64,000 nt of DNA, taken from NCBI RefSeq assembly GCF_024460775.1, contig NZ_JANFYZ010000002.1, positions 30,954 through 94,953 of the forward strand, written 5' to 3'. Source of the DNA: Desulfovibrio desulfuricans. Its GTDB lineage: Bacteria; Desulfobacterota; Desulfovibrionia; Desulfovibrionales; Desulfovibrionaceae. Position numbers and translations under genes: made by a program. Below the pieces are notes generated by a model. It worked only from the letters and a program-made list of their open reading frames with translations. It was not told where the DNA came from and did not search any database. This document shows positions 22,273-46,000 of this stretch, in pieces. Within the stretch, counting starts at the first letter, position 1. The number at the start of each line of letters is the position of its first letter.

Positions 22273-22273
22273 A

Positions 22274-24323: not shown

Positions 24324-24351
24324 GAGGGACTCCTTTTCTTGGTGAGGTAGA

Positions 24352-26703: not shown

Positions 26704-27573
26704 GTGAAAGTTGTCGTTTGCGCGAAGAAGGATCTTGCAGGATGTGTCGCCCTTAACAGACTGCTGGCAGCCATTGCCCCCAGGCACGATGTTTTTGTGG
26801 TTCTTTCAGATTACGTGCTGGACGCGGAGTGCAGCAATGCCTATGCGGCAAGCCTTGTGGCCCATGAGCGGAACATGGTGCTTGAGCACATTCTGCCCTG
26901 GCTGGAAGCCCGCTTTCCCGAGGGCAATGAGGCGCAGTGTCAGACCTATGCGGGCCTGAAAAAGCGTTACGGCATTGATATGGAGATGTGGGGGCCCATG
27001 CGGTCGCCAGCCTCCCGGCAAGCCATGCGCGACCTTGCGCCTGACGTTGTCATCTCCTGCCGCTACGACTATGTTATTCCCACTGAAGTTATCGATATGC
27101 CCCGGCTTGGCACCTACGGCATGCATCCCGGCGCGCTGCCTGATCTGCAAGGTTTGTGCAGCCCTTTTCGGGCGATGGAGCATGGCAATGAACGCTCTGG
27201 CTGCACGCTTTTCCACCTTGACGCAGGGCTGGATACCGGCCCCATAGTGGAGATCGGCTGGTGGCCCATCAACTATGACCGCTCCCTGCTGTGGAACTTT
27301 GTGCATACCTATTTTGCGGGTATAGACGCCCTGCTGCGCCATCTGCCGGAACTGGAGGCGGGGCGCGAGCTGACAACCCATGTGCAGAGCAGCGAAGGGC
27401 GAAAATACTTCAGCTATCCCACCGAAGACGAGTTCCGCAGGTTTATCCGGAAGGGCGGGCAAATCGTCCTGCCCGAAGATTATCATGAAGTGCTGTCATG
27501 GTTTCTGCCCGGGGGCCTGGCAGATCCCGCCATGCCCGAACTGCGGGCGCTGGTCAGTTCGCTGGAGTCCTGA
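26704..27573 (+). CDS. Fmt-like formyltransferase (formyl_trans_N + C-terminal domain), GTG start
   Basis: Core SCRYDYVIPTEVIDMPRLGTYGMHPGALPDLQG..TLFHLDAGLDTGPIV matches the N10-formyl-THF-dependent formyltransferase fold (HxSLLPxxRG-like region and DxGxI). AGGA RBS. Confidence 0.75.
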   Translation: MKVVVCAKKDLAGCVALNRLLAAIAPRHDVFVVLSDYVLDAECSNAYAASLVAHERNMVLEHILPWLEARFPEGNEAQCQTYAGLKKRYGIDMEMWGPMRSPASRQAMRDLAPDVVISCRYDYVIPTEVIDMPRLGTYGMHPGALPDLQGLCSPFRAMEHGNERSGCTLFHLDAGLDTGPIVEIGWWPINYDRSLLWNFVHTYFAGIDALLRHLPELEAGRELTTHVQSSEGRKYFSYPTEDEFRRFIRKGGQIVLPEDYHEVLSWFLPGGLADPAMPELRALVSSLES

Positions 27574-29956: not shown

Positions 29957-29965
29957 GGAAAATCC

Positions 29966-31111: not shown

Positions 31112-31165
31112 GCCTACTGCGCCGCGTGAAAGAGTGTGTTCATCAGAACCGTATCCCTATGCAGC

Positions 31166-31333
31166 CTAGCAGCGAGTGGGCTTTTTGGGGCTCGAGGCTA
31201 TGACAAGCAGCAGCCCCACCAGGGGGGTCAGCAGAACACTGGCAAAAAAATTGCCCCAGAATCCCAGCCGGGAATTGATGCCCAAAAACCCGACCAGCAG
31301 GCTCATGCCCAGTATGAGAGCGAACAGTAGCAC
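31166..31333 (-). CDS. small hydrophobic protein (55 aa, two predicted TM helices); below the ORF-track length cutoff
   Basis: GGGAGG RBS 7 nt upstream of a GTG start. Translation MLLFALILGMSLLVGFLGINSRLGFWGNFFASVLLTPLVGLLLVIASSPKKPTRC. Lies between the SPFH and SBP genes on the same strand. Confidence 0.35.
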   Translation of the reverse strand: MLLFALILGMSLLVGFLGINSRLGFWGNFFASVLLTPLVGLLLVIASSPKKPTRC

Positions 31334-31345
31334 AGCGGGCCTCCC

Positions 31346-32656
31346 TTACTGTCTGACAGCGCCGCCACGGTGCGGTTGCAGCAGTGTTTTATTCAACCTC
31401 TGGATATAATCCGATACATTTTCTCCGGGGGCGATCCAGCCAGCCCCGGCGGGTGTTTGGGCTTCGGCAGACGCGGCAGAATCCTGCTTTGCTGAGTCGC
31501 TACGCGGCCCGTACTTCGGCGCATACTGCGCCCCGGATTGGGAATCGTACTGGATTTGGGGGCGCAGGCCGGAATGTGAATTGGGGCGGAACGGGGGCGT
31601 TCTGCCGGGTTCGGGCCGCATCTGCCCTGGCTGAATTTGGCCAGGCCGCATATCCTCGGGCCGCTTCTGGTCTGGGCTGACCGAATCTGTTCCCGACATA
31701 TCTGGTTTGGCAGGCGTCTGCTGGGTGCCTTGCACGGGAGCCTTGGGGGCCGCCCCCTGATTGGCCGCCTTGCCAGCGTTTGCGGTATCTGGCGCGGCTG
31801 CGCCTGTGGGCGAATCTGCATTGAGGATAACAGGCAGGCCGTCCTTGCCGCCGATCACAACCACCTTGGCATTGGGCGACGTGGCAAGCTCCTTGGTGGC
31901 CTGAATACCTTCATAGCGCAAGAAGTTCTGCGTCATGTTCTCGTTGACAAGCGTCTGGTAGGCCTTGATGCCTTCGCCTTCAATTGTCTTGCGGCGGGCC
32001 TCCTGCTGGGCTTCAAGCAGAATGTACTTGTAGCGCAGGTAGTCCTGCTCCGCTATGAGCTTGCGTTCAATGGCCTCGCGCAGCACTTCGGGCAGGGTGA
32101 TGCTCTTGACCACAAAACCCTGAATAAGAACGGGGATGCGCCCCATTTCTTCCACTGCGTCCACCAGCATCTGGTCTTGCAGTTCCTGCCGCGCCGTGGA
32201 GTAGAGGTCGTCTGGCCGATAGCTGCCGATTGTTTGCCGCACGGCGGAATTCATGATGGGGATCACGACCTTGTCGCGGTAGTTCGGCCCGATTTCCTGA
32301 TGCAGGTTGGGCAGGCGGTCGCGGATGATCTGAAAACGCAGCGAAATCTGCACGTTGATGGTCAGGCCGTCCACGGTCAGCACATCGATGTTCTGGGTTT
32401 CTTCCTGCACGCGCACATCATAGATATACATGATGTTCCACGGCTGGATGAAATGTATGCCTTCCTCGTAGGTGTGCTGCAACTGTGTGCCGCCGCGAAA
32501 GCGCGCGTACAGCACGCCCAGCTCGCCGGGCTTGATGGAAATGACAATACTCGGCCAGAGAAACAGGAGCAGCAGCGTTGCAACAACGCCCGCGACTATG
32601 ATCCGCAGACGGTTGCGGCGCAACACTTCCCGTATATTTGCACAGACGCTTTTCAT
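31346..32656 (-). CDS. SPFH/band-7 (prohibitin/flotillin-like) membrane protein with a Pro/Gln/Ala-rich C-terminal tail
   Basis: N-terminal TM. SPFH core GELGVLYARFRGG...IHFIQPWNIMYIYDVRVQE...LTVDGLTINVQISLRFQI. Confidence 0.8.
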   Translation of the reverse strand: MKSVCANIREVLRRNRLRIIVAGVVATLLLLFLWPSIVISIKPGELGVLYARFRGGTQLQHTYEEGIHFIQPWNIMYIYDVRVQEETQNIDVLTVDGLTINVQISLRFQIIRDRLPNLHQEIGPNYRDKVVIPIMNSAVRQTIGSYRPDDLYSTARQELQDQMLVDAVEEMGRIPVLIQGFVVKSITLPEVLREAIERKLIAEQDYLRYKYILLEAQQEARRKTIEGEGIKAYQTLVNENMTQNFLRYEGIQATKELATSPNAKVVVIGGKDGLPVILNADSPTGAAAPDTANAGKAANQGAAPKAPVQGTQQTPAKPDMSGTDSVSPDQKRPEDMRPGQIQPGQMRPEPGRTPPFRPNSHSGLRPQIQYDSQSGAQYAPKYGPRSDSAKQDSAASAEAQTPAGAGWIAPGENVSDYIQRLNKTLLQPHRGGAVRQ

Positions 32657-33144
32657 TGATCCAACCGGTAGGTTTGCTGTGTATATTGCGCGGAGCCGCG
32701 CCAGAACATATCAAGCGTATAGTCTATGCACTGCCTTTCAAACAGAATGCAGCGTTCTTTGTCGTCTTCCGTCTGGCCCATGCAGATATTGTAAAGAATG
32801 GGGCACATATCAACATTGAGCACAAATTCGCCAAGACTGGGGCGCGAATGGATTCCTTTGCGGGCGTGGCGCACGAGGCTCTTGACATATTTGTTATTGC
32901 AAATCTGGATGCGCTGCCCGTAATCGTGGTTTTCTTCGTAGCACTTCAGCCTGTTCTGAATGGTCTGCGTGTTTTCCGCAGCATTCACTTCAGAGGGCAT
33001 GGTGTCGCGCACATTGTTGTACAGTTGGCGCACAAGCTGGATATTGGTATTTCCCGTAAGATCCTTGCCTTCTACCTTGGGTGCGGCGCACAGGCACAGC
33101 AGGGCCGTCAGGGGGAGGGCAAGCCGCAGAAAATGATCGGTCAT
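32653..33144 (-). CDS. secreted Cys-rich small protein of unknown function
   Basis: Signal peptide LALPLTALLCLCAAPKVEG. Mature ~140 aa with 7 Cys and an N/Y/K/Q-rich composition atypical for this genome. Overlaps SPFH (ATGA) and the ABC exporter (4 nt): operonic. Confidence 0.55.
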   Translation of the reverse strand: MTDHFLRLALPLTALLCLCAAPKVEGKDLTGNTNIQLVRQLYNNVRDTMPSEVNAAENTQTIQNRLKCYEENHDYGQRIQICNNKYVKSLVRHARKGIHSRPSLGEFVLNVDMCPILYNICMGQTEDDKERCILFERQCIDYTLDMFWRGSAQYTQQTYRLDQ

Positions 33145-34823
33145 GCCTGCGCCCCTTCGCCTGAGGGTTCTTCCACAAAGCCGCCTTCGCGCATGGTCAG
33201 CACCCTGTCGGCCACATGGAAATAGCGGTCGTCATGGGATATGGCCAGTATTGTGCCGCCCTGACGGATGATGTCAGGCAGCAGTTCTTCGTAAAAATAA
33301 CGGCGGAAAACAGGGTCGAAGTCTGCGGCCACTTCGTCAAACAGGTAGATATGGCGCTTTTCAAGCAGCGCACAGGCCAGGGCAAGGCGTTTGCGCTGCC
33401 CGGCGGAGAGATCAAGCGTGGAGAACGTGCCGTCTTCCAGCAGGCTCACCTTGGTTTCCATGTGCAGGGTGCGCAGCACGTCCGTGAGCTGGGCCGGGGT
33501 GATGTTCAGGCCGAGGGGCCGCGAAAACAGGTGGTAGTCTGTGGGCACAATGGTGAAGAGGTTGCGGTAGGATTCCATGTTAACATCGGAAAGCATGACG
33601 TTGTTCAGGAACATTTCTCCGCTCTCGGGCGCATACAACCCGGCCAGCACCTTCATGAAGGTGGACTTTCCCGATCCGTTGCCACCGCGAATGAACACCA
33701 GTTCGCCTTTGCGCAGCTCAAAGCTGTCTACAGCAATGCCAAAAAGCCGCATGCCGTTGCGGTCATGGTAGTCAAAACGCACATCGCGCAGAGCGATGGA
33801 GTCAAAATCCGGCACAGTGGGGTCGGCCTGCTGCCAGCGCGCCTTGACCCCCGCGTTTTCAAATGGCTCCGTCACGGCGTCTATCTGCGATTCCACGGCT
33901 GCAAGTTCCTGCAGGCTCATTTCTACCTTTGCCATCATGGGAACCGAGGTGATAAGGCTGATGAGCGGGCTCAGGCTGAACATACACAGTACCAGCAGCG
34001 AGGAAGTTTCCGACGTTTCGAGGTTCAGAACCTTGGGCATGATAAAAAGTATCAGCCCAAGAATCAGCAGATTGAACATGGCAAAAAATGATATGCCAAG
34101 GGCGTGCCTGTGCTCTGTGGCATCGCGGGCTTCTGATGCCACAGAAAGGTCAGGGATGATCTGCTCGCCAAACAGCGCCGTTGTCCTTGGCTTGTGCATC
34201 TTGAGTTGCAGCAGCCCGGCGTAAAGGTCGCGCAGCCCCGCGCAGAAGCGCTGGTCGGCCTGCATGGCTGGCCCCATGTGGGCATGCACCTTGTTGATAA
34301 GGTGCAGAAAAATCCAGAACCCCATAGCAAGAAAAAGAAAAACGCCCAGCGTACCGGGAATGGAGACCGTTGCCATCTTGGCAAACGAGAGCACAACCAT
34401 CACCGTATTGGCCGAGGCCGCAACCAGCATTCGGGCCGCTTCAACCACCATTTCGCGCCCGTCCAGCAGGGCGGACTGAATACGGTTTTTATCCAGCTTT
34501 TCATATTCCAGCAGAGAAACGCCGCGCAGCTTGGCGGCAATGCGCATGCGCCATTCCATGATGCCGCGCAGGGCAATCTGCGCCGAGCGCCCTGTGATGT
34601 AGCGGAAGAGAAAATAAAAGGAGGCGAGGCTCACCAGAAAAGCAAGAAAGGTGCTGAATTCCAGCCCGTCTTCAGAAAGCTGCTGCAAGCCCTGAAGCAC
34701 CGAAAATACGGCAAGCCCCTGCATGATGCCTGAGCCGAGGCACGCGGCGGCAATTTTTTTGCCTTCCTCGCCGGCCTGTTCCCACAGAAGTTTCAGAAAA
34801 AGAGATTCTTTCAGTTGCAGCAT
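33141..34823 (-). CDS. ABC transporter, fused permease/ATPase of the cyclic-peptide exporter type (SyrD/YojI-like)
   Basis: 560 aa. Six-TM N-terminal half. Walker A GGNGSGKST. ABC signature LSAGQRKRLALACALL. Walker B IYLFDEVAADFD. Size and architecture match the cyc_pep_trnsptr family. Confidence 0.8.
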   Translation of the reverse strand: MLQLKESLFLKLLWEQAGEEGKKIAAACLGSGIMQGLAVFSVLQGLQQLSEDGLEFSTFLAFLVSLASFYFLFRYITGRSAQIALRGIMEWRMRIAAKLRGVSLLEYEKLDKNRIQSALLDGREMVVEAARMLVAASANTVMVVLSFAKMATVSIPGTLGVFLFLAMGFWIFLHLINKVHAHMGPAMQADQRFCAGLRDLYAGLLQLKMHKPRTTALFGEQIIPDLSVASEARDATEHRHALGISFFAMFNLLILGLILFIMPKVLNLETSETSSLLVLCMFSLSPLISLITSVPMMAKVEMSLQELAAVESQIDAVTEPFENAGVKARWQQADPTVPDFDSIALRDVRFDYHDRNGMRLFGIAVDSFELRKGELVFIRGGNGSGKSTFMKVLAGLYAPESGEMFLNNVMLSDVNMESYRNLFTIVPTDYHLFSRPLGLNITPAQLTDVLRTLHMETKVSLLEDGTFSTLDLSAGQRKRLALACALLEKRHIYLFDEVAADFDPVFRRYFYEELLPDIIRQGGTILAISHDDRYFHVADRVLTMREGGFVEEPSGEGAQA

Positions 34824-35106
34824 GTGGTTCTGTGGCCCCGGTGTTCAGGTGCGCCGCGCATTACAGCATGCCCGGCGGTCTTGTATGCGCCCCTTTGCAG
34901 TGCAGGGGGCCTGGTAAATCAAGCGTCAACGCTGCCGCAGCGGCAGCCACGGCCTTTGCCAAGGCCTGAAAGTTATGCTCTGTCAGCCAATTTGGGCATA
35001 AGCGCGGCTGGGTACGGCGAGCGTAATAGCCAACACTTCCGTAAGGGCCAGTTGCCCGGCCCATACGGAAGGCTCCGATTCCCGAAACCGCCAGAGGTCG
35101 CCGATA

Positions 35107-35730
35107 TTAGGCCGCGCTGGTGTCCGCTTCTTTGGCGGGGGCTTCAGCGGCGGCTTCGTCCTTGGTTTCTTTTTTCATCTTGTTCTTGATCTTGCCGACC
35201 AATGTTTTGCCTTCCTCAACCTTTTCCTTGAAGTAGGTCTTGGCTTCTTCGGCATTGAAATCAATCAGGTTGCCGCCCTTTCTGAAATGGCGGTCAAAAA
35301 CCCAGCCAAGGGCATAGGTACTGGCGCCGCCCATAATGCTGATGGTGGCCGCGCCCGCGGTGAAGCCAATGACCGGAATGCTTTTCAGCAGCGAGGCGGC
35401 CAGGGGCACGCTTGCCGTGGTCAGAAAACCGCCGCAGAGCGAAGAAACGATGGATTTGACGCGTTCTTTTTTGAATTCAACGCCGTGAGCCTCGGCCAGT
35501 GCGTGGATAAGCTCAATCTGGAGGGCGGAGAGACCCAGAAAATCTACAAGGGGCACCGGCACAAAGCCAATGCCGATAGCGCCGTATACGCGCTTGCGGA
35601 TGATGGCGTCCACCACTTCTTCCGAAGGGCAGGCGCGTTCGCACGTTTCTGCTTCAGCAGCGGTTTCGGCCTGGCAGGCCATCTGATCTTCAACGCCGTC
35701 GACCTTGTTTTCCAACGTATCTTTTGTCAT
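35107..35730 (-). CDS. DUF697-like membrane-associated protein (start at MTKDT; ORF opens at 35817)
   Basis: Core VPVPLVDFLGLSALQIELIHALAEAHGV...SIPVIGFTAGAATISIMGGASTYALG resembles DUF697 (YcjF-type) domains. Lys/Glu-rich tail. Confidence 0.5.
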   Translation of the reverse strand: MTKDTLENKVDGVEDQMACQAETAAEAETCERACPSEEVVDAIIRKRVYGAIGIGFVPVPLVDFLGLSALQIELIHALAEAHGVEFKKERVKSIVSSLCGGFLTTASVPLAASLLKSIPVIGFTAGAATISIMGGASTYALGWVFDRHFRKGGNLIDFNAEEAKTYFKEKVEEGKTLVGKIKNKMKKETKDEAAAEAPAKEADTSAA

Positions 35731-35770
35731 GTGCAACCTCGTTGTGGCCGGTTTCAGGGTTACGGGAATT

Positions 35771-36904
35771 CTATTGGGGAACGGCCGTTTTATCAACGCC
35801 CGCCAGTGTGACGTCAAAGAGTTCGTCTGCCGAAATGAGCAGAATCAGCGGCAAATCCATGCCCATCTTCTGGGCAGTCACCAGATTCAGTGCAATCTTG
35901 GGCGTGTAGGCCGCTGTTTCAAGCTGGGTATTTGGCGGCAACAGGCCAAGCTGGGTGGCAATATGGTCAGCATAAAATTTGCCAAGAGGAACATAATCAA
36001 GGGTCGAAAGCCCCATGAGCGCGCCTCTGCGCACATGAACGCTGCCGTCGCGCGCAAAGGTCTTGATGTGGTGGGCGTTGAGCGTGTCAAAGATGGCCTG
36101 GGGGTTGGCCTGCGTCCAGTCAAAGCAGTTGAGGGCCGAAATGTAAAAGGCATCCACGCCAGCGGTCAGCAGCCTGTCCACGCCCTTGGTGCACGATTCC
36201 ATGCTCTCCGCTTTGTCCAGAAAGGGGTATTCCACAAGGGTAAAGCCACGCTCGCGCGCAACTTCGCGCGCTTCCCGCACATTGGAGTATGAAAGGCCCT
36301 CGGGGCTGTCGTGATACATGATGCCAAGGCGAAGAAAGGGCAGCGCCTCATGAAACAGGGCAAAGACCTTGAACCATTTATCCTTGGTGTAGCGGATTGT
36401 CAGGTTGGCCGCGCCCTTGCCAGTGGCGCGATCCACAATGCCGGCGCCTGCCGGGTCGGCCACGTCAACGCTCATGATGGGCGTTTTGCCGTTGTTTTCA
36501 GCCAGCAGGGCCTTGGTGGCCTCTGTTCCCATGCTTATGATGACGTCGATATCCGGATTTTGCATCAGTTTGCGTGCCTCTGCGCGGTAAACGCTCTCAG
36601 AGGCATCCCAGCCGGGGCTGATGTACAGTTCGTCCGGCAGGGTGATGCGGTCGGCAACCCCGCGTTGCCGCAGGGCCTTGATGATTTCTTTTTGCAGCAG
36701 GGTAAATTCCCAGTACGGCCCGGCTTCAAAATAGGCCGCAACCTTGGGGCGCGAGGGTTTGGGCTGGGAGGACGCCGGGGCAGGCGCTGCCATCTGTTCC
36801 ACAGGCGCGCGCGGGGGGGCTGCCTGCACATTTGCGCACAGGCATACTGCGCAGCAAAGTGCTGCGGCAAGTGCGGGGAAGAACGATCCGAGGCTGCTGC
36901 TCAT
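35771..36904 (-). CDS. periplasmic ABC-type substrate-binding protein, PF04392 family (second copy; start at MSSSLG, ORF opens at 36994)
   Basis: Signal peptide FFPALAAALCCAVCLCANVQA. DIDVIISMGTEATKALLAENNGKTPIMSVDVADPAGAGIV is the same family as 29966-31111, but only recognisably paralogous (about 35-40% identity by eye). Confidence 0.7.
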   Translation of the reverse strand: MSSSLGSFFPALAAALCCAVCLCANVQAAPPRAPVEQMAAPAPASSQPKPSRPKVAAYFEAGPYWEFTLLQKEIIKALRQRGVADRITLPDELYISPGWDASESVYRAEARKLMQNPDIDVIISMGTEATKALLAENNGKTPIMSVDVADPAGAGIVDRATGKGAANLTIRYTKDKWFKVFALFHEALPFLRLGIMYHDSPEGLSYSNVREAREVARERGFTLVEYPFLDKAESMESCTKGVDRLLTAGVDAFYISALNCFDWTQANPQAIFDTLNAHHIKTFARDGSVHVRRGALMGLSTLDYVPLGKFYADHIATQLGLLPPNTQLETAAYTPKIALNLVTAQKMGMDLPLILLISADELFDVTLAGVDKTAVPQ

Positions 36905-37185
36905 GGAACAAAATACCCTATGATGCGTTCTTGGTGACACAGAGTGTCCGCCGCTCGGCGGTTCTACCCCAAAACTGGAGTGGAGTTCTTCCAAAATCCG
37001 TGCAGAGCAGACAAACGTTTTTTTATGGTAATCTGCGCTATTGGCGGCGTTGGGCCATCCGGATTTTCACACGGGCGCAAAACCATGCGCGCATGTTTCA
37101 ACATATCAGAGGAAAAGCGGTATCGTCCACATGAATTTGGGGCGCGCATCGGCATTTCTGCATGTTTTTTGGCGGGTTGCAGGGA

Positions 37186-37929
37186 TCAACAGGCAAGGTG
37201 GACCACGACGTCCAGGCAGGGGCTATGGGCCGCAACGCTGCACTGGTAACCATCTGTTGTTCTGATGTCGCGGCTTGTCCACTGCCCGCCACCCTCAAGC
37301 ATTGCAGCCATGCCGTGAACAGCATTTGCAGTGAAGGATGCTATCCAGCCGCTCTCTTGCGGCCCGGTGTGCACGCTGAAGCTTTGCAAGGGCATGCTCA
37401 GGCCCATGCCCACAGCCTTGATTACGGCCTCCTTGCGCGTCCAGCAGCGGTAAAAGGCCGCTTGCAGTTCCCCAGGGGGCAGGGACAGCAGGTCTTTTTG
37501 CTCCTGCGGATGCAGCTGGCTGGTCAGCTCCGCCGCATCGGGCAGAGGGCGCATCCTTTCCACATCAATGCCCACGCTTGCGCAGCGGCAAAGGGCCACC
37601 CACACCATGCTGCCCGAATGGCTGATGGAAAAATCAGCGGATATTCCGGGGCAAAAGGGCTTGCCGTAAGGGGAGCGGGCTAACTCTGCGGCACTGTTCT
37701 GCCCAAAGGCGGCGAGCAGCAAACGCCGCGCCAAAGCTCTGCCTGCCAGATGCCGCGCCGCATCTTCTATGCGTACGTAGCGCCCGGCCTCCTGCTGCTC
37801 CTGCGGGGAGGTGTGGGGCGCGCACTTGCTGGGCCAGTCCGCAATATTTTCAAGCTCCAGGCCAACGCACAAAATGGATTTTTCCGGGGCGGACGGCGCG
37901 CGCCAGTTGCAAAAACGTTGCGCCAGCAC
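37186..37929 (-). CDS. Sfp-type 4-phosphopantetheinyl transferase
   Basis: Motifs SPYGKP, FSISHSGSMVWVAL, GIDVERM (PPTase GxDxE) and WTRKEAVIKAVG (W/KEA.xK). Confidence 0.85.
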   Translation of the reverse strand: MLAQRFCNWRAPSAPEKSILCVGLELENIADWPSKCAPHTSPQEQQEAGRYVRIEDAARHLAGRALARRLLLAAFGQNSAAELARSPYGKPFCPGISADFSISHSGSMVWVALCRCASVGIDVERMRPLPDAAELTSQLHPQEQKDLLSLPPGELQAAFYRCWTRKEAVIKAVGMGLSMPLQSFSVHTGPQESGWIASFTANAVHGMAAMLEGGGQWTSRDIRTTDGYQCSVAAHSPCLDVVVHLAC

Positions 37930-37932: not shown

Positions 37933-38649
37933 CTAATCCGTTGTTTGAAGGGTGCGGGTCATGTGGTCTGCCAGTTCCTGCCAGTGGTCCTGAACGTAAA
38001 AATGGCCGCCGCTGAAGGTGCGTACCGTGCATTGCGCGTCTGTCAGGTTTTGCCACTGCAGGGCGTCAGCCTCGGTAACGAGGTCGTGGCTGCCGATGGT
38101 GGTGTGGATAGGCAAGGGCAATGGGCTGTAGGGGGCGGGCTGCCAGCCCTCGATGGCCATAAAATCAGCGCAGAGCACAGGTTCAAGGTAGTTTCTGAAA
38201 TCCTGCGACTGCGCAATCTCGGGCGGGATGCCGCCCATGCGGGCCACGTAGTCCCACAGCGCGCCTGGGGGAAGCTGATCAACAGGGCGTGAAATCCCGG
38301 TGCGCATCAGCCCTGGCGTGGTGGCGGACGAAATGAACAGGGCCTTGGGCAAGGGCAGTGCCGCATCGCAGGCGAAGCGCGCGCAAAGAAAGGCCAGCAG
38401 GCCGCCCATGCTGTGGCCAAAAAGGGCGTAAGGGCCAGTGTGGGCGGCGGGGTGTATCTGCTCAAGCAGGTCGCGCCCCATGCTTTCCATGTTGGTAAGC
38501 AGCCGCTCCCGGCAGCGGCGGCCTTTGCCCGGCAGTTCCAGAGGTCTTGTAGTGATCCATGCCGGAAAAAGCTCGTTGAACCTCGCATAAAAGGCGGTAT
38601 TGCCTCCGGCGTGGGGAATGCAGAAAAGTGTTGTAGCCGAGTGTTGCAT
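37933..38649 (-). CDS. type II thioesterase (alpha/beta hydrolase, editing TE)
   Basis: LFCIPHAGGNTAFY, GHSMGGLLAFLCA (GxSxG) and C-terminal His. 238 aa, typical TEII size. Confidence 0.85.
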   Translation of the reverse strand: MQHSATTLFCIPHAGGNTAFYARFNELFPAWITTRPLELPGKGRRCRERLLTNMESMGRDLLEQIHPAAHTGPYALFGHSMGGLLAFLCARFACDAALPLPKALFISSATTPGLMRTGISRPVDQLPPGALWDYVARMGGIPPEIAQSQDFRNYLEPVLCADFMAIEGWQPAPYSPLPLPIHTTIGSHDLVTEADALQWQNLTDAQCTVRTFSGGHFYVQDHWQELADHMTRTLQTTD

Positions 38650-38658
38650 GTGTTGCGC

Positions 38659-39795
38659 CTACAGTTCAACCCATCCGGCATCGTCAGCAAGCTTTTGGAT
38701 GATGATGCGCGAGGCCTGTTCTTCGTGTCCGATGCGGGCATGCATCTGTTTGAGAACAATATTGCCCTCGCTGATGCCGCAGATTTCCAGTTTGCCGATG
38801 TCGTGCCCGATTATGTACTTGAAGCGTTTTCCATAGCCGCTGAGTTGCGCCTTGGCCTTATCCACAATGGCAATGCCCTGCTTGAGAGGCAGTTGAAAAT
38901 GGTGCCGTACCCGCGAAACAGGCATGCACTGGTACAGATAATACGGGTTCACCCCAATGGAAAGCAGGCGGTTCATAAGTTCGACAATGTCTTCCACACT
39001 GTCGTTGACGCCGCGCAGCAGCACCGCCTGATTGTTGATGGTGGCCCCGCACAGGCGCAGCCTCTTGATGGCCTCGGTCGAGGTGAGCGTGATCTCTCGC
39101 GCATGGTTGTAGTGCGTGGCAATGTACAGAGCCTTGCGCTCGGCAAAGGCGCGCAGGGCGTCCATGAGGGCGTCTTCAAAGATGCGCAGCGGGTAGGTGA
39201 CAGGAATGCGCGTACCGATACGCACAAAATCCACATGGTCGATCTCGGCCAGCCCCTCCAGCATTTTTTGCAGCACCGGGGTTGCCAGAGTCAGTGGATC
39301 GCCGCCGGAAAGAATGACGTTGTTGATCTTGGGATTGTCGGCAATGTATTGCAGCGCCCCGGCAAAGTTGCGCAAGGTCTGCTGGCTGGAGTGCCCCACA
39401 ATACGGCGGCGAAAGCAGTGGCGGCAGTGCATGGCGCAGCATTCTGTTGTGATCAGCAGTGCAGTGCAGTCGTATTTATGCAGTACGCCATTGCCCTTGT
39501 CGTGCTTGTCATCACCGTAGGGATCGGCAGTAGTCGCGCCCATGGATCCGGCAACCACCAGTTCTTCCGCATCAGGAAAGCACATGCGACGGATGGGATC
39601 ATTGGGATCGTTTTTATCTATAAGGCTCAGATAATAGCGGGGAATGTTGACCGGGTGCACCTTGGCGACTTCACGAAGCGTTGCTTCCTCTTGTGGACTG
39701 AAGGTGGCGTATTGCTTCAACTGGTCGATGGTGACGACGTTGTTTGCAAGTTCCTTTTTCCAGTCAAGGCATTTCCAGCAAGGTTCAGCGTCCAT
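38659..39795 (-). CDS. KamA-family radical-SAM amino acid 2,3-aminomutase (lysine 2,3-aminomutase-like; start at MDAEPCWK with GAGG RBS, ORF opens at 39891)
   Basis: CxxxCxxC cluster CAMHCRHCFRRR. Recalled similarity to lysine 2,3-aminomutase over ~350 aa: RYYLSLIDKNDPNDPIR, ALLITTECCAMHC, ILSGGDPLTL, VRIGTRIPV, LLRGVNDSVE, NPYYLYQC. Confidence 0.85.
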   Translation of the reverse strand: MDAEPCWKCLDWKKELANNVVTIDQLKQYATFSPQEEATLREVAKVHPVNIPRYYLSLIDKNDPNDPIRRMCFPDAEELVVAGSMGATTADPYGDDKHDKGNGVLHKYDCTALLITTECCAMHCRHCFRRRIVGHSSQQTLRNFAGALQYIADNPKINNVILSGGDPLTLATPVLQKMLEGLAEIDHVDFVRIGTRIPVTYPLRIFEDALMDALRAFAERKALYIATHYNHAREITLTSTEAIKRLRLCGATINNQAVLLRGVNDSVEDIVELMNRLLSIGVNPYYLYQCMPVSRVRHHFQLPLKQGIAIVDKAKAQLSGYGKRFKYIIGHDIGKLEICGISEGNIVLKQMHARIGHEEQASRIIIQKLADDAGWVEL

Positions 39796-40032
39796 TATTC
39801 CGGCCTCTGTTTGCGGATGGATTTTCTGTTGTTCAGGTGTGTTGGACGTTCCAGAACAACCGGATACAGAGTTATTGTTGAGGAAATGCATTCAATATCC
39901 GGTTTGCGTTCTGTTTGTGAATTTACGGCAAAAACTGCCCAAAGTATATGTAAAACTTGCTAATATACAGGCCGTGAGCTATTTTGCCCACCATATTGCA
40001 CTAAGCGCATTAAAGCCGCAGTGGGGGACGGA

Positions 40033-43000
40033 ATGGCAAAGATTGTGCCTTTAACCGGTTGTCAAAAAGAACTGTGGCTCTCGGCAAAAGCGGCGCTGTC
40101 CGACTATGCCGAAACCTCCATTCGGGGCTGTTATCACATTGACGCCCTGCTTGATCCCGATTTGTTGCGCCAGGCCATCAAGCGCACCCTGCATTTCACG
40201 CCTCTGCCCGCCGCCTCCCTGTGTCAGGATGAAGCCGAACCGTACTTTCTTGTGGGTGAACCGCAGGAACCTGATTTCAGGGTCCTGGACGCCGCTACGC
40301 AGCCGGACCCCGATGCCGCTGCCGACCGCATGATCGACGAGTTTTTTGAAGAACCGGTCGAAAATCCCCTTATGCGTTATGCCCTTGTCATCACTGGCGA
40401 GGCAAGCTGCATCGTTGCCATGAAGTGCTCGCACGTGGTGCTGGACGGGCTGGCATTCTTTTTTCACATAGCTGTTATTGCGGACGTTTACACAGCACTC
40501 GCACGTGGTGAAACGCCAGAACTTGGCGAGCCGTGCTCCTGCGAAGAAGCCTACCTTGAAGATCAGGCGCACTGCGCTTCGCCGCGGTTTCAGAAAGACA
40601 TGACCTTTTGGCAGGAGCACCTTGCCCGCCTGCCAGAAAAGCGCCTGCTGCGCGCCCTGCCGGGGCGGCCCGATGTGCTTGGCGAGAGCCGCCACCAGAA
40701 GTTTGTGCTGTCAGAAAAAACCTCGAGTGAAACGTCCGCGCTCATTGCCGCCCACAAGGTCAGCCCTGCGGTGTTTTTTACAGGCATCTACGCACTCATC
40801 GTGTCGTTCATGAGCGGAGAAAAGGACATTGTGGCTCTTGCCCCAGTGGCCTATGGGGAGCGCAAGGTGCTGTACCGGCGGCAGGGGGCCATGATGTCGC
40901 TGCCGCCACTGCTGGTAAACGTGGCCGCGCACGATACCTTTGCAGGGCTGCTGGAGGCCGTCAGCGCCCAGAACGGATCCTTTTACCGCCATGTGCGCAC
41001 GCCTTACCAACTGGCTGCCCGCCAGCTTGAAGGCAAAAATTTTGCCTTTCTGGCAGATACCTTTGTCAATTTTCTGCCCAATACACCTCCCGGCACGCCA
41101 GAATTCCCGATTGTCGAGGCGGAGCAGCGGCACAGCGCCAAGGAGCCGATCCTTTTCGGTACCCTGGTCATGCAGGAGCTGCGCTCGGGCTGCTTTTCGC
41201 TCACGGTGCGCAACAGCCGCAACCACCTGAGCGACAGGGATGTGGAGCGTTTTGTCGCCCGCGTTGAGAGCGTGGTGGCCCAGCTTGCCGCTGGCATTGA
41301 GCCGCCGCAGCTTGATTATCTGCTGGAAGAAGAAAAGCGGGAACTCGCGCAATGGCGCAGCGGCCCTGCCAGAAAGTATGATATCCGTTCCCTGCCCGAA
41401 CTTTTTGACGCGGCGGCGGATGCCTTTGCCGGGCGCGTTGCAGTCAGGGACGAATGGGGCAACTCCCTTTCGTACGCGCAGGTGCGCGAAAATTCCCTGC
41501 GTTGCGCCTCGTGGCTGGCAGGGCAGGGCGTTGCACGGGGCGGCATTGTGGCTGTGGCGGCGCAGCGCACGGCCAATCTGCCCGAAGTTGTTCTGGGCAT
41601 ACAGCGGCTTGGCGCGGTCTATCTGCCCATAGACCCCAAGGCCGCACCCGACCGCATGGCCTATATTGTGGAAGACGCCGGGGCAGACATCACGCTTGAC
41701 CTTGCCGATCTTGCCTACCGCCAAGCCCCCATAAGTCCCTTGCCGCAAGCACCCCGGGCAGAGGATGGGGCCTACCTGATCTACACCTCCGGCTCCACAG
41801 GCAAGCCCAAGGGCGTGCTGGCTCCGCACGGCGGCTTTGCCAACATGATCCAGGGGCAGATCGAGCTTTTTGGCGTGCAGGCCGATGACCATGTGCTGCA
41901 GTTTGCGCCGCCCATTTTTGACGCCTCGCTGTCGGAAATGTTCATGGCTCTGCTGGCAGGGGCCGCCCTGTATCCGGTGAGCGACCAGTGCCGCAACGCC
42001 CCCTGGACGTTGCGGCAGTACATGATCGATAACGACATCAGCATTGTCACCCTGCCGCCCTCGTACCTCAATCTTTTTGAGGGAGAGCCCTTTCCCGGAT
42101 TGCGCGTGCTCATAACGGCGGGCGAGCCGCCGGTGGTGGGCGATGCCCTGCACTATGCCAAGGGCCTGCGTTATTTCAACGCCTACGGCCCTACGGAAAC
42201 CTGCGTCTGCGCGGCAATGAAGGAAGTTTCGCCCTTTGAGCCGCAACCCATTGGCGTGGGCAGCCCCATCCCCAACGTGACGCTTTCCATCCGCAATGCC
42301 GAGGGGCGCGAGCTGCCCGCAGGCATGGCGGGCGAACTGTGGATAGGCGGGGCCAGCCTTGCCCTTGGCTACCACAACAAGCCTGAAATGACGGAGCAGC
42401 GTTTTGTCCATCTGCCGCAGGAAGGAAACGCCCGCTTTTACGCGTCCGGCGATCTGGCCTTGTGGTCGGACAAGGGTGAGATTCTGCTGCTGGGCCGCGC
42501 AGACGATCAGGTGAAGATTCGCGGCAACCGGGTGGAGCTGGCCGAGGTGGCCTGCCTGCTTGAGAGCTGCGAAAGCGTCAGTCAGGCGGCGGTGCTGGCC
42601 GTCAAGGATGCGGGCGGTCAGGCCAGCCTTGCGGCGTTTTTTGTGCTGCGGCCCGGCGCATCCATAGAAGCGGTGGTTTCGTGGAGCAGAACAAGCCTGC
42701 CGCCCTACATGGTGCCCTCAGCCTGGCATGTGCTGGAAGCTATGCCTCTTGCCCCCACAGGCAAGATAGACCGCAAGGCACTGCAAAGCCTTGCACGGCG
42801 GGGCGATGCTCAGGGCGGCAGTGTCCGCAAGCCCCATGCTGGCCTTCTGGAGATATTTGAGCGCGTGCTTGGCCGGGCCTATGATCCCGAAAAGAGCTTT
42901 TTTGCCCAGGGCGGCAACAGCCTTAACGCCATGTCGTTGCTGCACGCCATCCGAAAAACCTTTGACGTTGATATTTCCTTCCGCAGTTTTGTCAGCTGTG

Positions 43001-46000
43001 AAACGCTGTTTGATGTGGAATCCCTGCTTGGCGGCGTCCGTGCGGAGTCGGCCCTTGCAGGCATTGAAAGCGCGCCGCTCAGCACCGGGCAGTTCCGCAT
43101 CTGGGCCTACCAGCAGGTTAACGAAGGCTCCATTGACTACAATATGCCCCTGCTGCTTGAACTGCGGGGCGACAAAACTGCGGATTTTCTGGAAGGCCTG
43201 CGCAGGGCTGCCAACGCGCAGGAGCTTTTTCACTGCACGGTGGCGGGCGATATAGACAATCCCCATTTTGCGCGGGGCAAGGGCGAGGTCTACCTGTGCA
43301 GCGTGGCCATTGCCGATGCGCGCGAAGCGGCGGTATTTTTTGACCAGCAGATACACACGCCTTTTGACCTGCGTGTGGAGCCGCCTGTGCGCCTTGTGGC
43401 CGCTGTTTTGCCGCAGTGCGTTCAGGTGCTTGTGCTGGTGCACCATGTGGCGGGCGATGGCGAAACCCTTGAAATCCTGCTGCAAAATGCCTTGCGCTAT
43501 TTGCGCGGCGAGCCGCCCGCGTGCGGTCTGCTGGCTGTGCAGGAGGCTTTTTGCCGCAGGCAGGCCGCCTATGCGGCATCGCCAGCCTGCGCAGATGATG
43601 CGGCCTACTGGCAGGAGGTGCTTACGCCGCCCGTGCCCACTGTGAATCCGGCCACAGGGGCCGCCAGCCGCAAAGGCGCCATGATCGGCGTTGATCTTGA
43701 TGCGGAAACCGCGCAGGGATTTGAAATTCTGGCAAGAAATTCTGGCGCGAGCGTGCTGGCCTGCTTTGTGGCCTTGGCGGGGCGCGCACTCTGCCGCCGC
43801 TTTGACAGAAAAGAACTGTTGCTGGGCGTGCCTATGGGGCTGCGCGAAACGCAGGACGAATTTTGCGCTGCCGGATTCTACGTCAACACCGTCCCCCTGC
43901 GTGTGCGCCTTGACGGCCTTGAAGACAGCGCCGCAGTGGCCGATGCCGCCCGGCAGATGCGGCAGGCCATTGAACACAGCCGTTACTGCGCTGCGGATAT
44001 TGTACCCGAATTTCTGGCAACGCATGCGCATTTTGAACCTGTGGGAGTTCCGGGGCTTGAACTGAACAGGCTGGAGCTGGAATTGCGGGCCAGCAAGCTC
44101 ACAGCCAGCTTTACCCTCGTAACAGGCACGGCTTCGCGCATTGTGCTGGAGTACGACGCGGGTTGCATAGCCGATGCCCCGGCTTTGCTGGATGATCTGG
44201 CGCAGAGCATGCGACGTGCCTGCGAAGGCCTTGCCCGCCGCAATCCCCGGCAGGTACTGGCCGATGCCTGGCGCGAGATTCTGCACCCCGGCAGTTCCAG
44301 CGCAGTGCAGGAAGAAAGCGACTTTTTCCGCGATGGCGGTGATTCCATCAAGGCTATCCAGATAACGGGCATTCTGCGCCGCAGCGGCATAACCGCCTTG
44401 AGCGCGCCGGATTTTTTGCGCAAGCCCCACTTTGGCGACCTCTGCACCCTGCTGGAAAGCGCCGACAGCGAGCTTTCTGCCGCGCAGGCGATGGACTACA
44501 CGCCTGTTGCCCCTGGCGAGCAGGTTCCCTTGCTGCCATTTGCCCGCTATTTTCTGGGTGCGCATCCCAGTCACTGGCGGCAGTTCTTCATGCTGCTGCC
44601 GCTGGAAATTCGCTCGGATGTGCCAACGGCAAGCATTGAAGCATGGCTGCAAACCCTGCCGGAAAATCACGAATCCCTGCGCATGGCCTTTGCGCCGGAT
44701 CATGCCGTGCTGCTGGCCGAACCGCAAAAAATAACCCTGCACTGCCGCGATTTCGCCGACACTGTGGAGCAGACAAGCCTGCTGCGCAAGGCGGTGGCGG
44801 AGATCACAGAGGGCCTTGATGCGGCATGCGGCAAAACTCTGGGGGCCATGCTGGCCCGGCAGGGCGAGAGGCGCTTCTTGCTGCTGGTGGGGCATCACCT
44901 TGCGCTGGACGCGCTTTCGCTTGAAACCCTGCGGCAGGGCTTGCTCCATTACTGCCGCACAGGCAAAGCCCAGTGCGAAGCGCACGGCCTTGCCCTGCGC
45001 GCCCGCGAGGTTGAGCGGCTGCGCGCCGCCGGGGTATTCCCGTCTGAGGAACAGCGCGCCTTGTGGCGGGCTGCCTGCGCCGAACCATGCGAACCCTTGC
45101 GGGCTCTTTTGCCCCAGAGCAGGGACAGGGGCCGGGACAGCGCCGCCAGCCGTGCCCGTCTGTCCGCGCAGCTTGAGGGCTTCCGGCAGGAATACAGCAC
45201 CGATGCCAAGGCCGATCTGCTGGCCGCGCTTGCCTGCGCCCTGCACGCCCAGGGGCAGAAGGCGGCGGTGCGCGTAACACTTGAAAGCCACGGGCGCGAT
45301 GAACTTTTGTCGGGCTTTGACGCCAGCCGCAGCCTTGGCTGGTTTACGGCGGTCTGCCCCATGCCGCTTGGGCCTTCCCTGAACTACGCGCAGGCCCGCG
45401 AAGCCCTCGGCCCGTGGCTTGCGCAGCATTTCAGCCCGGAAAACTGCAATGCCTATGGGTATCTGCGGCAGGAAAATCCGGCTGAATTTGGCTATGCGGC
45501 CCAGATTGCCTTTAACTATCTGGGGCGTTTGACGGGTCAGCCTGACGAAGAGGCCTCCCTGATGCTCTCGGCTCTGGCTCCGGGGCTTATCCCCGAGCTT
45601 GTCCACGCCGACATGGAGGCGGATGCTCCGCTGGAGCTTTCGGTTTTTTTTGACCAGCAGGGCATCCTGCATCTCGGGGCGTGGTTCAGCCCGCAGTGCC
45701 TGCCGCAGGATTGGGTTTCCGGCTTGCTCCAGAGTTGGCGTGCCGCCCTGAAAACCCTGCCCGCCTATCTGCCGCAGCAGACCCTGGATGCCATTTTTGC
45801 CGCCTGCGGCTGCCATGCGGAGGATGTGGAGCGCATCGCACAGCCGGATGCAGGGCATGCGCCCTTGCTGTATCAGTCCCTGCTTGCGCAATCTGGGGTT
45901 TACACCCAGCAGGTGGAATTTCATTTTCGCGGCCCGGTGGATGTTTTTGCGCTCATGCGCGCGTGGGAAGCGCTCACCGCGCGGCACGAAAGCCTGCGTT

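What the first reader, a model, noticed from the sequence alone, without database searches (positions are those of the whole stretch)
38659..39795. KamA-family radical-SAM 2,3-aminomutase encoded divergently from the megasynthase: likely beta-amino acid (beta-lysine-type) building block
The gene is similar to lysine 2,3-aminomutase by recalled alignment (CxxxCxxC, YYLSLID.NDPNDP, GGDPL, VRIGTR, LRGVND). It shares a ~240-bp AT-rich divergent promoter region with the NRPS and sits in one operon with the TEII and PPTase. In streptothricin, viomycin and capreomycin pathways such enzymes supply beta-lysine. Here it could explain how one of the A-less modules or the starter unit is provisioned.
Basis: partly seen in the sequence, partly recalled or inferred. 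Interest (0 to 1): 0.6.

Follow-up and report, generated by a model that had tools for sequence, protein, structure and literature searches.

The report
Non-lysine KamA aminomutase in NRPS-PKS cluster
The gene is a real radical-SAM amino-acid 2,3-aminomutase that travels with a conserved Desulfovibrio peptide-polyketide gene cluster, but it lacks the residues that bind lysine, so the beta-amino acid it makes is probably not beta-lysine and may be beta-glutamine or beta-glutamate.

Summary
Window 38659-39795 (-) encodes a 378-aa KamA-family radical-SAM/PLP protein, above the family cutoff, with the Fe-S cysteines, the PLP lysine and the carboxylate-binding arginine intact. It is packed against a type II thioesterase and an Sfp-type PPTase, and sits divergent from a 5,610-aa NRPS-PKS across 237 bp of AT-rich DNA. 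The link is conserved: 21 of 25 distinct loci in its clade show the NRPS, and the gene stays in the cluster when the cluster is rearranged.

The beta-lysine reading is not supported. The protein is below the cutoffs for the Lys, Arg, Glu and EpmB enzymes. LAM Asp293 is Met and Asp330 is Gly, invariant in 84 relatives. No efp gene is nearby. The three A-domain codes look like Tyr, Ser and Gln, none basic.

The gene belongs to an uncharacterised clade. Its sister clade (57-65% identical, no fixed differences) lies outside NRPS clusters. About 17 of its 57 loci sit beside a GlnHPQ-type glutamine transporter, and some sit beside glutamine synthetases and a second KamA paralogue.

My best guess is a Glu/Gln-type 2,3-aminomutase feeding the assembly line, perhaps the Gln-like terminal A domain. 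This substrate call is inferred, not shown. I rate it a new variant of a known kind, of moderate interest.

The parts
38659..39795 (-). KamA-family radical-SAM/PLP amino-acid 2,3-aminomutase gene (378 aa). It belongs to an uncharacterised clade.
   Evidence: TIGR00238 scores 260.5 bits against a cutoff of 199.2, and all substrate-specific equivalogs are below cutoff. PDB 2A5H matches at E=3.5e-70. Homologues are 374-379 aa.
39415..39438 (-). CxxxCxxC [4Fe-4S]/SAM cluster motif (C120, C124, C127; CAMHCRHC), followed by R129, the equivalent of the LAM R134 carboxylate binder.
   Evidence: These columns are invariant.
38896..38928 (-). Specificity loop C290-MPVSRVRHH-F300. Met291 replaces LAM Asp293, and the loop carries two Arg and two His.
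   Evidence: Alignments. The loop is at least 97% conserved in 84 clade members.
38791..38811 (-). IGHDIGK segment. Lys335 is the PLP lysine (LAM K337), and Gly330 sits at the position of LAM Asp330.
   Evidence: K335 is invariant across all KamA-family references.
37933..38649 (-). Type II thioesterase, 9 nt downstream of the KamA gene.
   Evidence: Pfam Thioesterase 126 bits. It is conserved next to KamA in relatives.
37186..37929 (-). Sfp-type 4'-phosphopantetheinyl transferase, 3 nt downstream of the TEII gene.
   Evidence: Pfam ACPS plus AASDHPPT_N. Conserved in relatives.
39796..40032 (.). Divergent intergenic region, 237 bp at 44% GC, between the KamA gene and the megasynthase.
   Evidence: Composition and sequence. 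Two weak sigma-70-like matches on the minus strand are not above shuffle expectation.
40021..56853 (+). NRPS-PKS megasynthase (5,610 aa from GTG 40021; the likely start is ATG 40033). Layout: C-A1-T-C-T-C/E-like-C-T-C-A2-T-KS-(DH-like)-KR-T-C. There is no AT domain.
   Evidence: Pfam domains and motif positions.
41404..42765 (+). A1 adenylation domain, specificity code DASTIAAVCK (Tyr-like).
   Evidence: with the PheA reference verified against 1AMU. The code is identical in 16 related clusters.
44344..44346 (+). Carrier serine of T2 (S1442, FFRDGGDSI), in an A-less C-T module.
   Evidence: There is no A domain between C2 and T2.
47347..47349 (+). Carrier serine of T3 (S2443, FFQLGGHSL), in a second A-less C-T module.
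48850..50358 (+). A2 adenylation domain, code DVWHFSLVDK (Ser, EntF-type).
56850..60401 (+). Terminal subunit A3(MT)-T-TE. The A domain is interrupted by a methyltransferase domain (Pfam, residues 233-352) inserted upstream of the SGSTGTPKG motif at residue 481. Code DAQDLAVVDK (Gln-like).
   Evidence: Pfam, translation and code. The same code occurs in L040 and L094.
26704..36994 (.). Conserved accessory block of the same cluster: formyltransferase-like gene, 800-aa MFS, two PF04392 binding proteins, a Band_7 protein, a 163-aa ORF, a cyclic-peptide-type ABC exporter and a DUF697 protein.
   Evidence: Pfam and NCBIfam. Co-conserved with KamA in relatives.

Best explanation
The gene encodes a PLP- and [4Fe-4S]/SAM-dependent amino-acid 2,3-aminomutase. 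It would bind a free L-alpha-amino acid through the conserved Arg129 and form the external aldimine after release from Lys335. The 5'-deoxyadenosyl radical would then move the amino group from C2 to C3.

It belongs to a previously uncharacterised KamA clade whose side-chain pocket differs from every characterised member. Met replaces LAM Asp293, Gly replaces Asp330, and an Arg/His-rich loop follows.

In this Desulfovibrio it is a dedicated part of a conserved NRPS-PKS cluster. It is co-transcribed with the TEII and the PPTase, and it supplies a beta-amino acid that is not beta-lysine.

The most likely substrate class is glutamine or glutamate. The most likely acceptor is the Gln-like terminal A3(MT)-T-TE subunit, or one of the two A-less carrier domains loaded in trans.

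Shown: family membership, intact catalytic residues, loss of the lysine-binding residues, and co-inheritance with the cluster. Inferred: the aminomutase activity itself, the substrate, and the point of entry into the assembly line.
For: Family and catalytic residues:
- KamA family model above cutoff, and 2A5H matches at E=3.5e-70.
- CxxxCxxC, the GGD motif, R129 (LAM R134) and K335 (LAM K337) are invariant.

Not lysine:
- All four substrate-specific equivalogs are far below cutoff.
- At LAM D293 the references have D in LAM, AblA, EpmB and BlsG, K in a validated Eam-type sequence, and M here. At D330 the residue here is G.
- The CMPVxRVRxHF loop is at least 97% conserved in 84 clade members.

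Cluster link:
- 21 of 25 distinct N-clade loci show the NRPS. TEII and PPTase are adjacent in most.
- The gene is retained in rearranged clusters. In Verrucomicrobia L040 it lies directly after A3(MT)-T-TE. In Desulfomicrobium it lies at the far end of the same cluster.
- The NRPS-linked sequences form one clade in an NJ tree.

Glu/Gln hint:
- The sister clade shows no fixed residue differences.
- About 17 of its 57 loci lie beside an ABC transporter. Its binding protein passes the GlnH equivalog cutoff (335 and 328 bits against 303), and GlnP and GlnQ score at the cutoff.
- Glutamine synthetases are nearby in some of these loci.
- The specificity loop is basic, as in Eam, rather than acidic, as in the Lys and Arg enzymes.
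- The A3 code DAQDLAVVDK is Gln-like and is conserved at 56-60% protein identity.
Against: - No activity data exist for any member of the clade.
- The Glu/Gln inference rests on synteny of the sister clade, seen in about 30% of its loci. Other loci show unrelated neighbours.
- It also rests on a code-to-substrate table that I recalled from the literature.
- The characterised glutamate enzyme uses Lys and Asn at the two pocket positions, and these are not present here.
- LAM Arg116, conserved in all the other references, is Thr in this clade. The consequence is unknown.
- A1 and A3 keep the canonical Asp235 and Lys517 and look like alpha-amino-acid codes. No stand-alone A domain that could load the A-less modules is in the window.
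- More distant homologous clusters (Imhoffiella, Rhodocyclaceae) show no KamA gene in the flanks that could be seen.
Confidence: 0.55

Rival explanations
1. One reading: a lysine 2,3-aminomutase that makes beta-lysine for the NRPS, as in the streptothricin, viomycin and capreomycin pathways.
For: The best-scoring NCBIfam model by a small margin is lysine 2,3-aminomutase at 263.5 bits. The only PDB hit is LAM. Some database sources name relatives 'lysine 2,3-aminomutase'. An Asp (D332) lies three residues before the PLP lysine and could in principle contact a basic group.
Against: 263.5 bits is half the curated cutoff of 525.4, and the Arg, Glu and EpmB models score about the same. Asp293 is Met and Asp330 is Gly, invariantly. 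All Lys- and Arg-acting references keep an acidic residue at position 293. None of the three A-domain codes carries the acidic pocket residues typical of Lys, Orn or Arg codes.
Confidence: 0.07
2. An aminomutase acting on an aromatic or hydrophobic amino acid. One example is Tyr to beta-Tyr for the strictly conserved Tyr-like A1 of the starter module. Others are Leu, Met or Ala.
For: The two pocket positions become hydrophobic or small (Met, Gly). The A1 code DASTIAAVCK is identical in 16 clusters whose A1 proteins are only 51-60% identical. From recalled patent literature, engineered LAMs with the D330-equivalent mutated accept alanine.
Against: Nothing in the sister-clade neighbourhoods points to aromatic or branched substrates, apart from one Liv-type transporter in L089. 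The loop gains two Arg and two His, which suits a polar or acidic side chain better. No radical-SAM tyrosine 2,3-aminomutase is known to me.
Confidence: 0.15
3. The gene is a primary-metabolism or osmolyte enzyme that merely neighbours the cluster, or serves it indirectly through regulation or self-protection. It would not be a building-block supplier.
For: A sister clade 57-65% identical, with no fixed differences, lives outside any NRPS context, next to amino-acid transporters, regulators and glutamine synthetases. The KamA gene has a lower GC (55%) than its neighbours (61-62%).
Against: NRPS-linked copies form their own clade. They stay inside the cluster through rearrangements and across phyla. 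They are translationally packed with the TEII and PPTase genes.
Confidence: 0.1
4. An EpmB/YjeK-type enzyme that makes (R)-beta-lysine for EF-P modification.
For: EpmB is the nearest outgroup in a crude NJ tree. Like EpmB, the protein lacks the C-terminal Zn/Cys domain of LAM.
Against: The EpmB model scores 240 against a cutoff of 369. The EpmB Asp at the D293 position is Met here. No efp gene is in the window or within 10 kb in any of 85 related loci. Identity to E. coli EpmB is only 33-34%.
Confidence: 0.02

Closest known systems
Lysine 2,3-aminomutase (Clostridium subterminale KamA, PDB 2A5H; AblA)
   Same: Same fold family. It shares the CxxxCxxC cluster, the GGD SAM motif, the Arg that binds the substrate carboxylate and the PLP lysine. 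Identity is 36% over residues 42-354.
   Different: Asp293 is Met and Asp330 is Gly. Arg116 is Thr. The Zn-site Cys268 is Ser and the C-terminal Cys-rich domain is absent. A clade-specific segment, GxMGxTTxDPYGDDxHxKGNG, is present. The lysine model scores half its cutoff.
Glutamate 2,3-aminomutase (Eam, TIGR04368; IdnL4 in the incednine cluster as the secondary-metabolism example, PMC11284099)
   Same: It is a KamA-family enzyme in which the acidic pocket of LAM is replaced and the 293-loop carries basic residues. IdnL4 is a precedent for a radical-SAM aminomutase feeding a non-lysine beta-amino acid to an assembly line.
   Different: Eam has Lys and Asn at the two pocket positions and a roughly 40-aa N-terminal extension (reference sequence validated at 714 bits). 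Here the residues are Met and Gly, and the Eam model scores 241 against a cutoff of 650. If the substrate is glutamate, this would be a convergent solution.
Arginine 2,3-aminomutase BlsG (blasticidin S)
   Same: It is a cluster-embedded KamA-family enzyme. It shares the two-residue deletion before the PLP lysine and lacks Asp330 (Thr).
   Different: BlsG keeps Asp at position 293, and here it is Met. The model scores 251 against a cutoff of 600.
EpmB (YjeK)
   Same: A short KamA-family protein without the Zn/C-terminal domain.
   Different: EpmB keeps Asp and Glu at the two pocket positions and is linked to efp and epmA. Neither is true here.
VioP / CmnP and the streptothricin beta-lysine suppliers (from my own knowledge)
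   Same: The logic is the same: an aminomutase gene inside an NRPS cluster provides a beta-amino acid building block.
   Different: Those enzymes act on lysine and are paired with beta-lysine-specific A domains. Here no such A domain and no lysine-binding residues are present.

Membership tests
KamA family radical SAM proteins (TIGR00238) | Score above the curated family cutoff | tested here: met
   260.5 bits against a cutoff of 199.2.
KamA family radical SAM proteins (TIGR00238) | CxxxCxxC [4Fe-4S] motif and GGD/E SAM-binding motif | tested here: met
   C120, C124, C127 and G164-G165-D166 are invariant in alignments with LAM, AblA, EpmB, BlsG and Eam.
KamA family radical SAM proteins (TIGR00238) | PLP-binding lysine (LAM K337) and alpha-carboxylate-binding arginine (LAM R134) | tested here: met
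   K335 and R129 are invariant.
KamA family radical SAM proteins (TIGR00238) | 2,3-amino migration activity | not testable with these tools
   This needs anaerobic reconstitution and an assay.
Lysine 2,3-aminomutase (TIGR03820; KamA/AblA) | Equivalog score cutoff | tested here: not met
   263.5 bits against 525.4. The recalled LAM control scores 638.5.
Lysine 2,3-aminomutase (TIGR03820; KamA/AblA) | Asp293 and Asp330 binding the lysine epsilon-ammonium | tested here: not met
   Met291 and Gly330 at these positions. Invariant in the clade.
Lysine 2,3-aminomutase (TIGR03820; KamA/AblA) | Zn site (Cys268 plus C-terminal Cys) and C-terminal domain | tested here: not met
   Ser at the Cys268 position. 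The protein ends about 40 residues after the PLP lysine without the Cys cluster.
EpmB, EF-P beta-lysylation (TIGR03821) | Equivalog cutoff, acidic pocket residues, and linkage to efp/epmA | tested here: not met
   240 bits against 369.3. The Asp is Met here. No efp gene is in the window or in 85 loci.
Glutamate 2,3-aminomutase Eam (TIGR04368) | Equivalog cutoff, and Lys/Asn at LAM positions 293/330 | tested here: not met
   240.7 bits against 650. Met/Gly here against Lys/Asn in a sequence that scores 714 bits. This excludes membership of the Eam family. It does not exclude glutamate as the substrate.
Arginine 2,3-aminomutase BlsG (TIGR04468) | Equivalog cutoff, and Asp at position 293 | tested here: not met
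   251.5 bits against 600. Met here against Asp in BlsG.
Building-block enzyme of an NRPS-PKS biosynthetic gene cluster | Conserved physical linkage with the synthetase across taxa and rearrangements | tested here: met
   21 of 25 distinct loci of the clade show the NRPS. Linkage is kept in L040 and in Desulfomicrobium despite a different gene order. The NRPS-linked copies form one clade in an NJ tree.
Building-block enzyme of an NRPS-PKS biosynthetic gene cluster | A matching activating domain for the product, or the product found in the metabolite | tested here: inconclusive
   The codes are Tyr-, Ser- and Gln-like, with canonical Asp235 and Lys517. There are two A-less carrier domains and no stand-alone A domain in the window. 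The metabolite is unknown.

The most novel reading that the evidence does not exclude
The clade is a new specificity class of radical-SAM 2,3-aminomutase. It would act on glutamine, which would be the first glutamine 2,3-aminomutase, or on glutamate through an Arg/His loop convergent with Eam.

In Desulfovibrionaceae it has been recruited to feed beta-Gln or beta-Glu into a widespread but unstudied NRPS-PKS product.

Its sister clade occurs in marine and sediment Desulfobacterota, Desulfuromonadales, Nitrospinota and others. It sits next to GlnHPQ, glutamine synthetases and a second KamA paralogue. That clade would then be a bacterial route to the beta-glutamate and beta-glutamine long observed in anoxic marine sediments and halophiles.
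Probability: 0.3. Interest if true: 0.7.

Novelty: new variant of a known kind. Interest (0 to 1): 0.45.

Why it matters
Radical-SAM 2,3-aminomutases with proven substrates cover only lysine, arginine and glutamate. A conserved, widely distributed clade with a different pocket would extend that list and give a new biocatalyst for beta-amino acids.

It also corrects the building-block prediction for an NRPS-PKS cluster conserved across Desulfovibrionaceae, a family that includes gut-associated species, whose product I could not find described. Anyone predicting that product as a beta-lysine peptide would be misled.

If the Glu/Gln guess is right, the sister clade makes the origin of bacterial beta-glutamate and beta-glutamine directly testable.

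Tried and rejected
- **Literature.** Five searches found nothing on this clade or this cluster. They covered Desulfovibrio NRPS clusters, KamA in Desulfovibrio, and antiSMASH surveys. The magnetotactic-bacteria review does not mention an aminomutase.
- **Key papers not held.** Ruzicka & Frey 2007 and Tunckanat et al. 2022 could not be read. What I say about them is from memory.
- **Riboswitches.** Rfam found none upstream of KamA in the window or in seven sister-clade loci. The only hits were tRNAs and an unrelated SAM riboswitch.
- **Reference sequences.** The plasmid collection gave BlsG, AblA and EpmB but no Eam. I therefore typed an Eam-type sequence from memory and accepted it only after it passed the TIGR04368 cutoff.
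- **Clade-specific residues.** I looked for residues that separate NRPS-linked from non-NRPS copies. None are fixed.
- **Correlation of KamA with the A3 code.** I tried to correlate KamA presence with A3 code variants in distant homologous clusters. DNA upstream of those NRPS genes could not be retrieved, so the comparison is undecided.
- **Promoter scan.** Matches in the intergenic region are not above shuffle expectation.
- **Structure prediction.** Not run. The tools return no coordinates, so pocket geometry could not be examined, and the fold assignment was already secure.
- **Rejected ORFs.** The longer 410-aa ORF start (39891) and the 516-aa antisense ORF 38413-39963 are artefacts of GC-rich sequence.
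Full report
**1. What is there**

The minus-strand ORF 38659-39891 is listed. The internal ATG at 39795 is the supported start. It gives 378 aa, which matches the 374-379-aa homologues at 98-100% coverage. An AGAGG sequence lies upstream of it.

The protein passes the curated cutoff of the KamA family model, TIGR00238, at 260.5 bits against 199.2. It hits Pfam Radical_SAM. It aligns to lysine 2,3-aminomutase 2A5H at E=3.5e-70.

Two genes follow on the same strand:
- A type II thioesterase (37933-38649) lies 9 nt downstream.
- An Sfp-type PPTase (37186-37929) lies a further 3 nt downstream.

On the other side, 237 bp at 44% GC (window average 59%) separate the gene from a 5,610-aa megasynthase.

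**2. The megasynthase**

Pfam hits and motif positions give this layout:
- First protein: C-A1-T-C-T-(C/E-like, HHLALDA)-C-T-C-A2-T-KS-(DH-like)-KR-T-C.
- Second protein (56850-60401), translationally coupled to the first: A3(MT)-T-TE. Its A domain is interrupted by a methyltransferase domain (Pfam, residues 233-352), inserted upstream of the SGSTGTPKG motif at residue 481.

Two carrier domains, with serines S1442 and S2443, have no cognate A domain. There is no AT domain and no stand-alone A domain in the window.

I extracted specificity codes against a GrsA-PheA reference that I first verified against 1AMU:

| Domain | Code | Recalled assignment |
|---|---|---|
| A1 | DASTIAAVCK | Tyr / beta-hydroxy-Tyr type (DASTVAAVCK) |
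| A2 | DVWHFSLVDK | Ser (EntF) |
| A3 | DAQDLAVVDK | Gln type (DAQDLGVVDK) |

The assignments come from the Stachelhaus table as I recall it. None of the three is a basic-substrate code.

**3. Is the gene really part of the cluster?**

A scan of one genome per species found 174 relatives, of which the best 80 were kept. The closest, at 96-98% identity, are Desulfovibrio desulfuricans and Desulfovibrio MAGs, so the window is from that group.

Every relative at 66% identity or more, plus L040 (63%) and Desulfomicrobium escambiense (65%), belongs to the same kind of cluster. The taxa are Desulfovibrionaceae, Desulfomicrobium, Magnetospirillum fulvum, and Verrucomicrobia and Lentisphaerae MAGs. 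The cluster contains the NRPS, TEII, PPTase, two PF04392 binding proteins, an 800-aa MFS, Band_7, DUF697 and a cyclic-peptide-type ABC exporter.

Of 25 distinct loci, 21 show the NRPS. Two of the other four have under 350 nt of upstream sequence.

Desulfomicrobium escambiense looked like an exception at first. Its NRPS-PKS and A3(MT)-T-TE turn out to lie on the same contig, in a rearranged order. In a Verrucomicrobia MAG (L040) the gene follows A3(MT)-T-TE directly.

In an NJ tree the cluster-linked copies form one clade, which I call N. A dedicated role in the pathway is therefore well supported.

**4. Why not lysine**

The Lys, Arg, Glu and EpmB equivalog models all score 240-264 bits, far below their cutoffs of 369-650. 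None is favoured.

I aligned the protein with these references:
- AblA and BlsG, taken from annotated plasmids.
- E. coli EpmB.

| Enzyme | Residue at LAM Asp293 | Residue at LAM Asp330 |
|---|---|---|
| LAM | Asp | Asp |
| AblA | Asp | Asp |
| EpmB | Asp | Glu |
| BlsG | Asp | Thr |
| Eam-type | Lys | Asn |
| This protein | Met | Gly |

The loop after position 293 reads MPVSRVRHHF here, DLSLGLEHF in LAM and KHVKGTKHF in Eam. It has lost its acidic residues and gained two Arg and two His.

This signature is at least 97% conserved in all 84 clade members examined. LAM Arg116 is Thr in this clade only. The Zn-site cysteine and the C-terminal domain of LAM are absent.

The catalytic core is intact: the Fe-S cysteines, the GGD motif, Arg129 (LAM R134) and the PLP lysine K335. 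An aminomutase acting on a free alpha-amino acid remains the sensible chemistry.

EpmB is excluded by its score, by the pocket residue, and by the absence of efp from the window and from all 85 loci.

**5. What the substrate might be**

The 57 relatives at 57-65% identity form the sister clade, which I call x. They come from Desulfobacterales, Desulfuromonadales, Syntrophobacteria, Sedimenticola, Campylobacterota, Nitrospinota and others. None has an NRPS, TEII or PPTase nearby.

No alignment column is fixed differently between the N and x clades. The same reaction is therefore likely in both.

The x-clade neighbourhoods show several recurring features:
- In about 17 of 57 loci the gene lies directly beside a three-gene ABC transporter. 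Its binding protein passes the GlnH (glutamine) equivalog cutoff at 335 and 328 bits against 303. The permease and ATPase score at the GlnP and GlnQ cutoffs.
- RpiR or GntR regulators are present.
- In several loci there is a bona fide GlnA plus a second GS-like gene.
- In at least 18 loci there is a second KamA paralogue of 358 aa, with Glu at the 293 position.
- Other loci have unrelated neighbours: an Lrp/AsnC regulator with a DAO-type oxidoreductase, MoaE and others.

Glutamine synthetase is known to convert beta-glutamate to beta-glutamine in a methanogen (PMC1224877).

Three lines of evidence point in the same direction: the basic loop, the glutamine-transporter and GS synteny, and the Gln-like A3 code. 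That code is kept unchanged in clusters only 56-60% identical. Together they make Glu or Gln the best single guess.

Each line is indirect. I put about 0.3-0.35 on this sub-claim. The main alternative is a hydrophobic or aromatic substrate serving the invariant Tyr-like A1.

**6. Comparison with what is known**

Radical-SAM aminomutases inside biosynthetic clusters are a known idea. Examples are beta-Lys in streptothricin, viomycin and capreomycin, beta-Arg through BlsG, and beta-Glu through IdnL4 in incednine (PMC11284099).

What differs here is the specificity signature, the clade, and the host cluster. I found no description of that cluster in the literature. The protein is a member of the KamA family. 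It is not a member of any characterised specificity family (see the membership table).

**7. Verdict**

The building-block aminomutase linked to the cluster holds. The beta-lysine assignment does not.
- Novelty: a new variant of a known kind.
- Interest is moderate, at 0.45. The concept is familiar, but the pocket is unprecedented and the clade is widespread.
- If the clade proves to be a glutamine 2,3-aminomutase, or a convergent glutamate one, interest would rise to about 0.7.

Noticed in passing
L088:3248-4324 (-) and L089:1220-2296 (+); also L030, L032, L036, L038, L041, L042, L044, L046, L048, L049, L055, L063, L065, L068, L070, L071, L073: A second uncharacterised KamA-family paralogue (358 aa, with the LAM_C domain and Glu at the LAM Asp293 position) sits next to the sister-clade gene in at least 18 of 57 loci. 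It scores below all equivalog cutoffs; the best is Arg at 370 against 600. Two different aminomutases in one operon with GlnHPQ and glutamine synthetases suggests an undescribed beta-amino-acid pathway.
   Followed up: partly
window 43300-47400 (+): There are two A-less C-T modules (carrier serines S1442 and S2443). A degenerate condensation/epimerisation-like domain (HHLALDA at residue 1625) follows a GGDSI-type carrier domain. How these carriers are loaded is unknown, and no stand-alone A domain is in the window.
   Followed up: partly
window 56850-60401 (+): The terminal A domain is interrupted by a methyltransferase domain (Pfam, residues 233-352), inserted upstream of the SGSTGTPKG motif at residue 481. 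This architecture is conserved in more than 100 homologues down to 36% identity, including Imhoffiella and Rhodocyclaceae.
   Followed up: partly
window 50740-54900 (+); L092:13459-14382, L093:13619-14665: The KS-(DH-like)-KR-T module has no AT domain, and the window has no AT gene. More distant homologous clusters carry a stand-alone Acyl_transf_1 gene right after A3(MT)-T-TE. The module is therefore trans-AT type and presumably borrows an AT, possibly FabD, in this organism.
   Followed up: partly
window 26704-36994: An unusual accessory set is co-conserved with the cluster across genera. It contains two PF04392 'ABC_sub_bind' proteins without cognate permeases nearby, an 800-aa MFS protein, a Band_7/SPFH protein, DUF697, a cyclic-peptide-type ABC exporter (TIGR01194, 277 bits against a cutoff of 286) and a formyltransferase-like gene. 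Function is unknown; it could be export, uptake or self-protection.
   Followed up: partly
window 38659-39795: The KamA gene is 55% GC, while the adjacent TEII and PPTase genes are 61-62% and the NRPS is 62.5%. This may reflect a different origin or strong sequence constraint.
   Followed up: no
window 25865-26608 (+): A VanX-like D-Ala-D-Ala dipeptidase (Peptidase_M15, 149 bits) lies just outside the cluster's left edge, next to the formyltransferase-like gene. Whether it belongs to the cluster was not tested.
   Followed up: no
L004:2735-9495 (Desulfomicrobium escambiense): Upstream of KamA in this rearranged cluster lie an MprF-like aminoacyl-phosphatidylglycerol synthase, a VirJ-family protein, a small methyltransferase and a FemAB-family protein. 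They are probably unrelated neighbours.
   Followed up: no
window 38413-39963 (+), 42718-46899 (-), 40711-42411 (-): Very long ORFs run antisense to the KamA and NRPS genes (516, 1,393 and 566 aa). I took them to be by-products of GC-rich coding sequence; none was submitted to a family search.
   Followed up: partly
window 61172-63893 (+); 18241-24435: The flanks are ordinary. An HDOD protein and a GGDEF-EAL protein lie to the right. Lon protease, trigger factor, a tRNA (24355-24435, minus strand), CobU and ThiD-like kinase genes lie to the left.
   Followed up: yes
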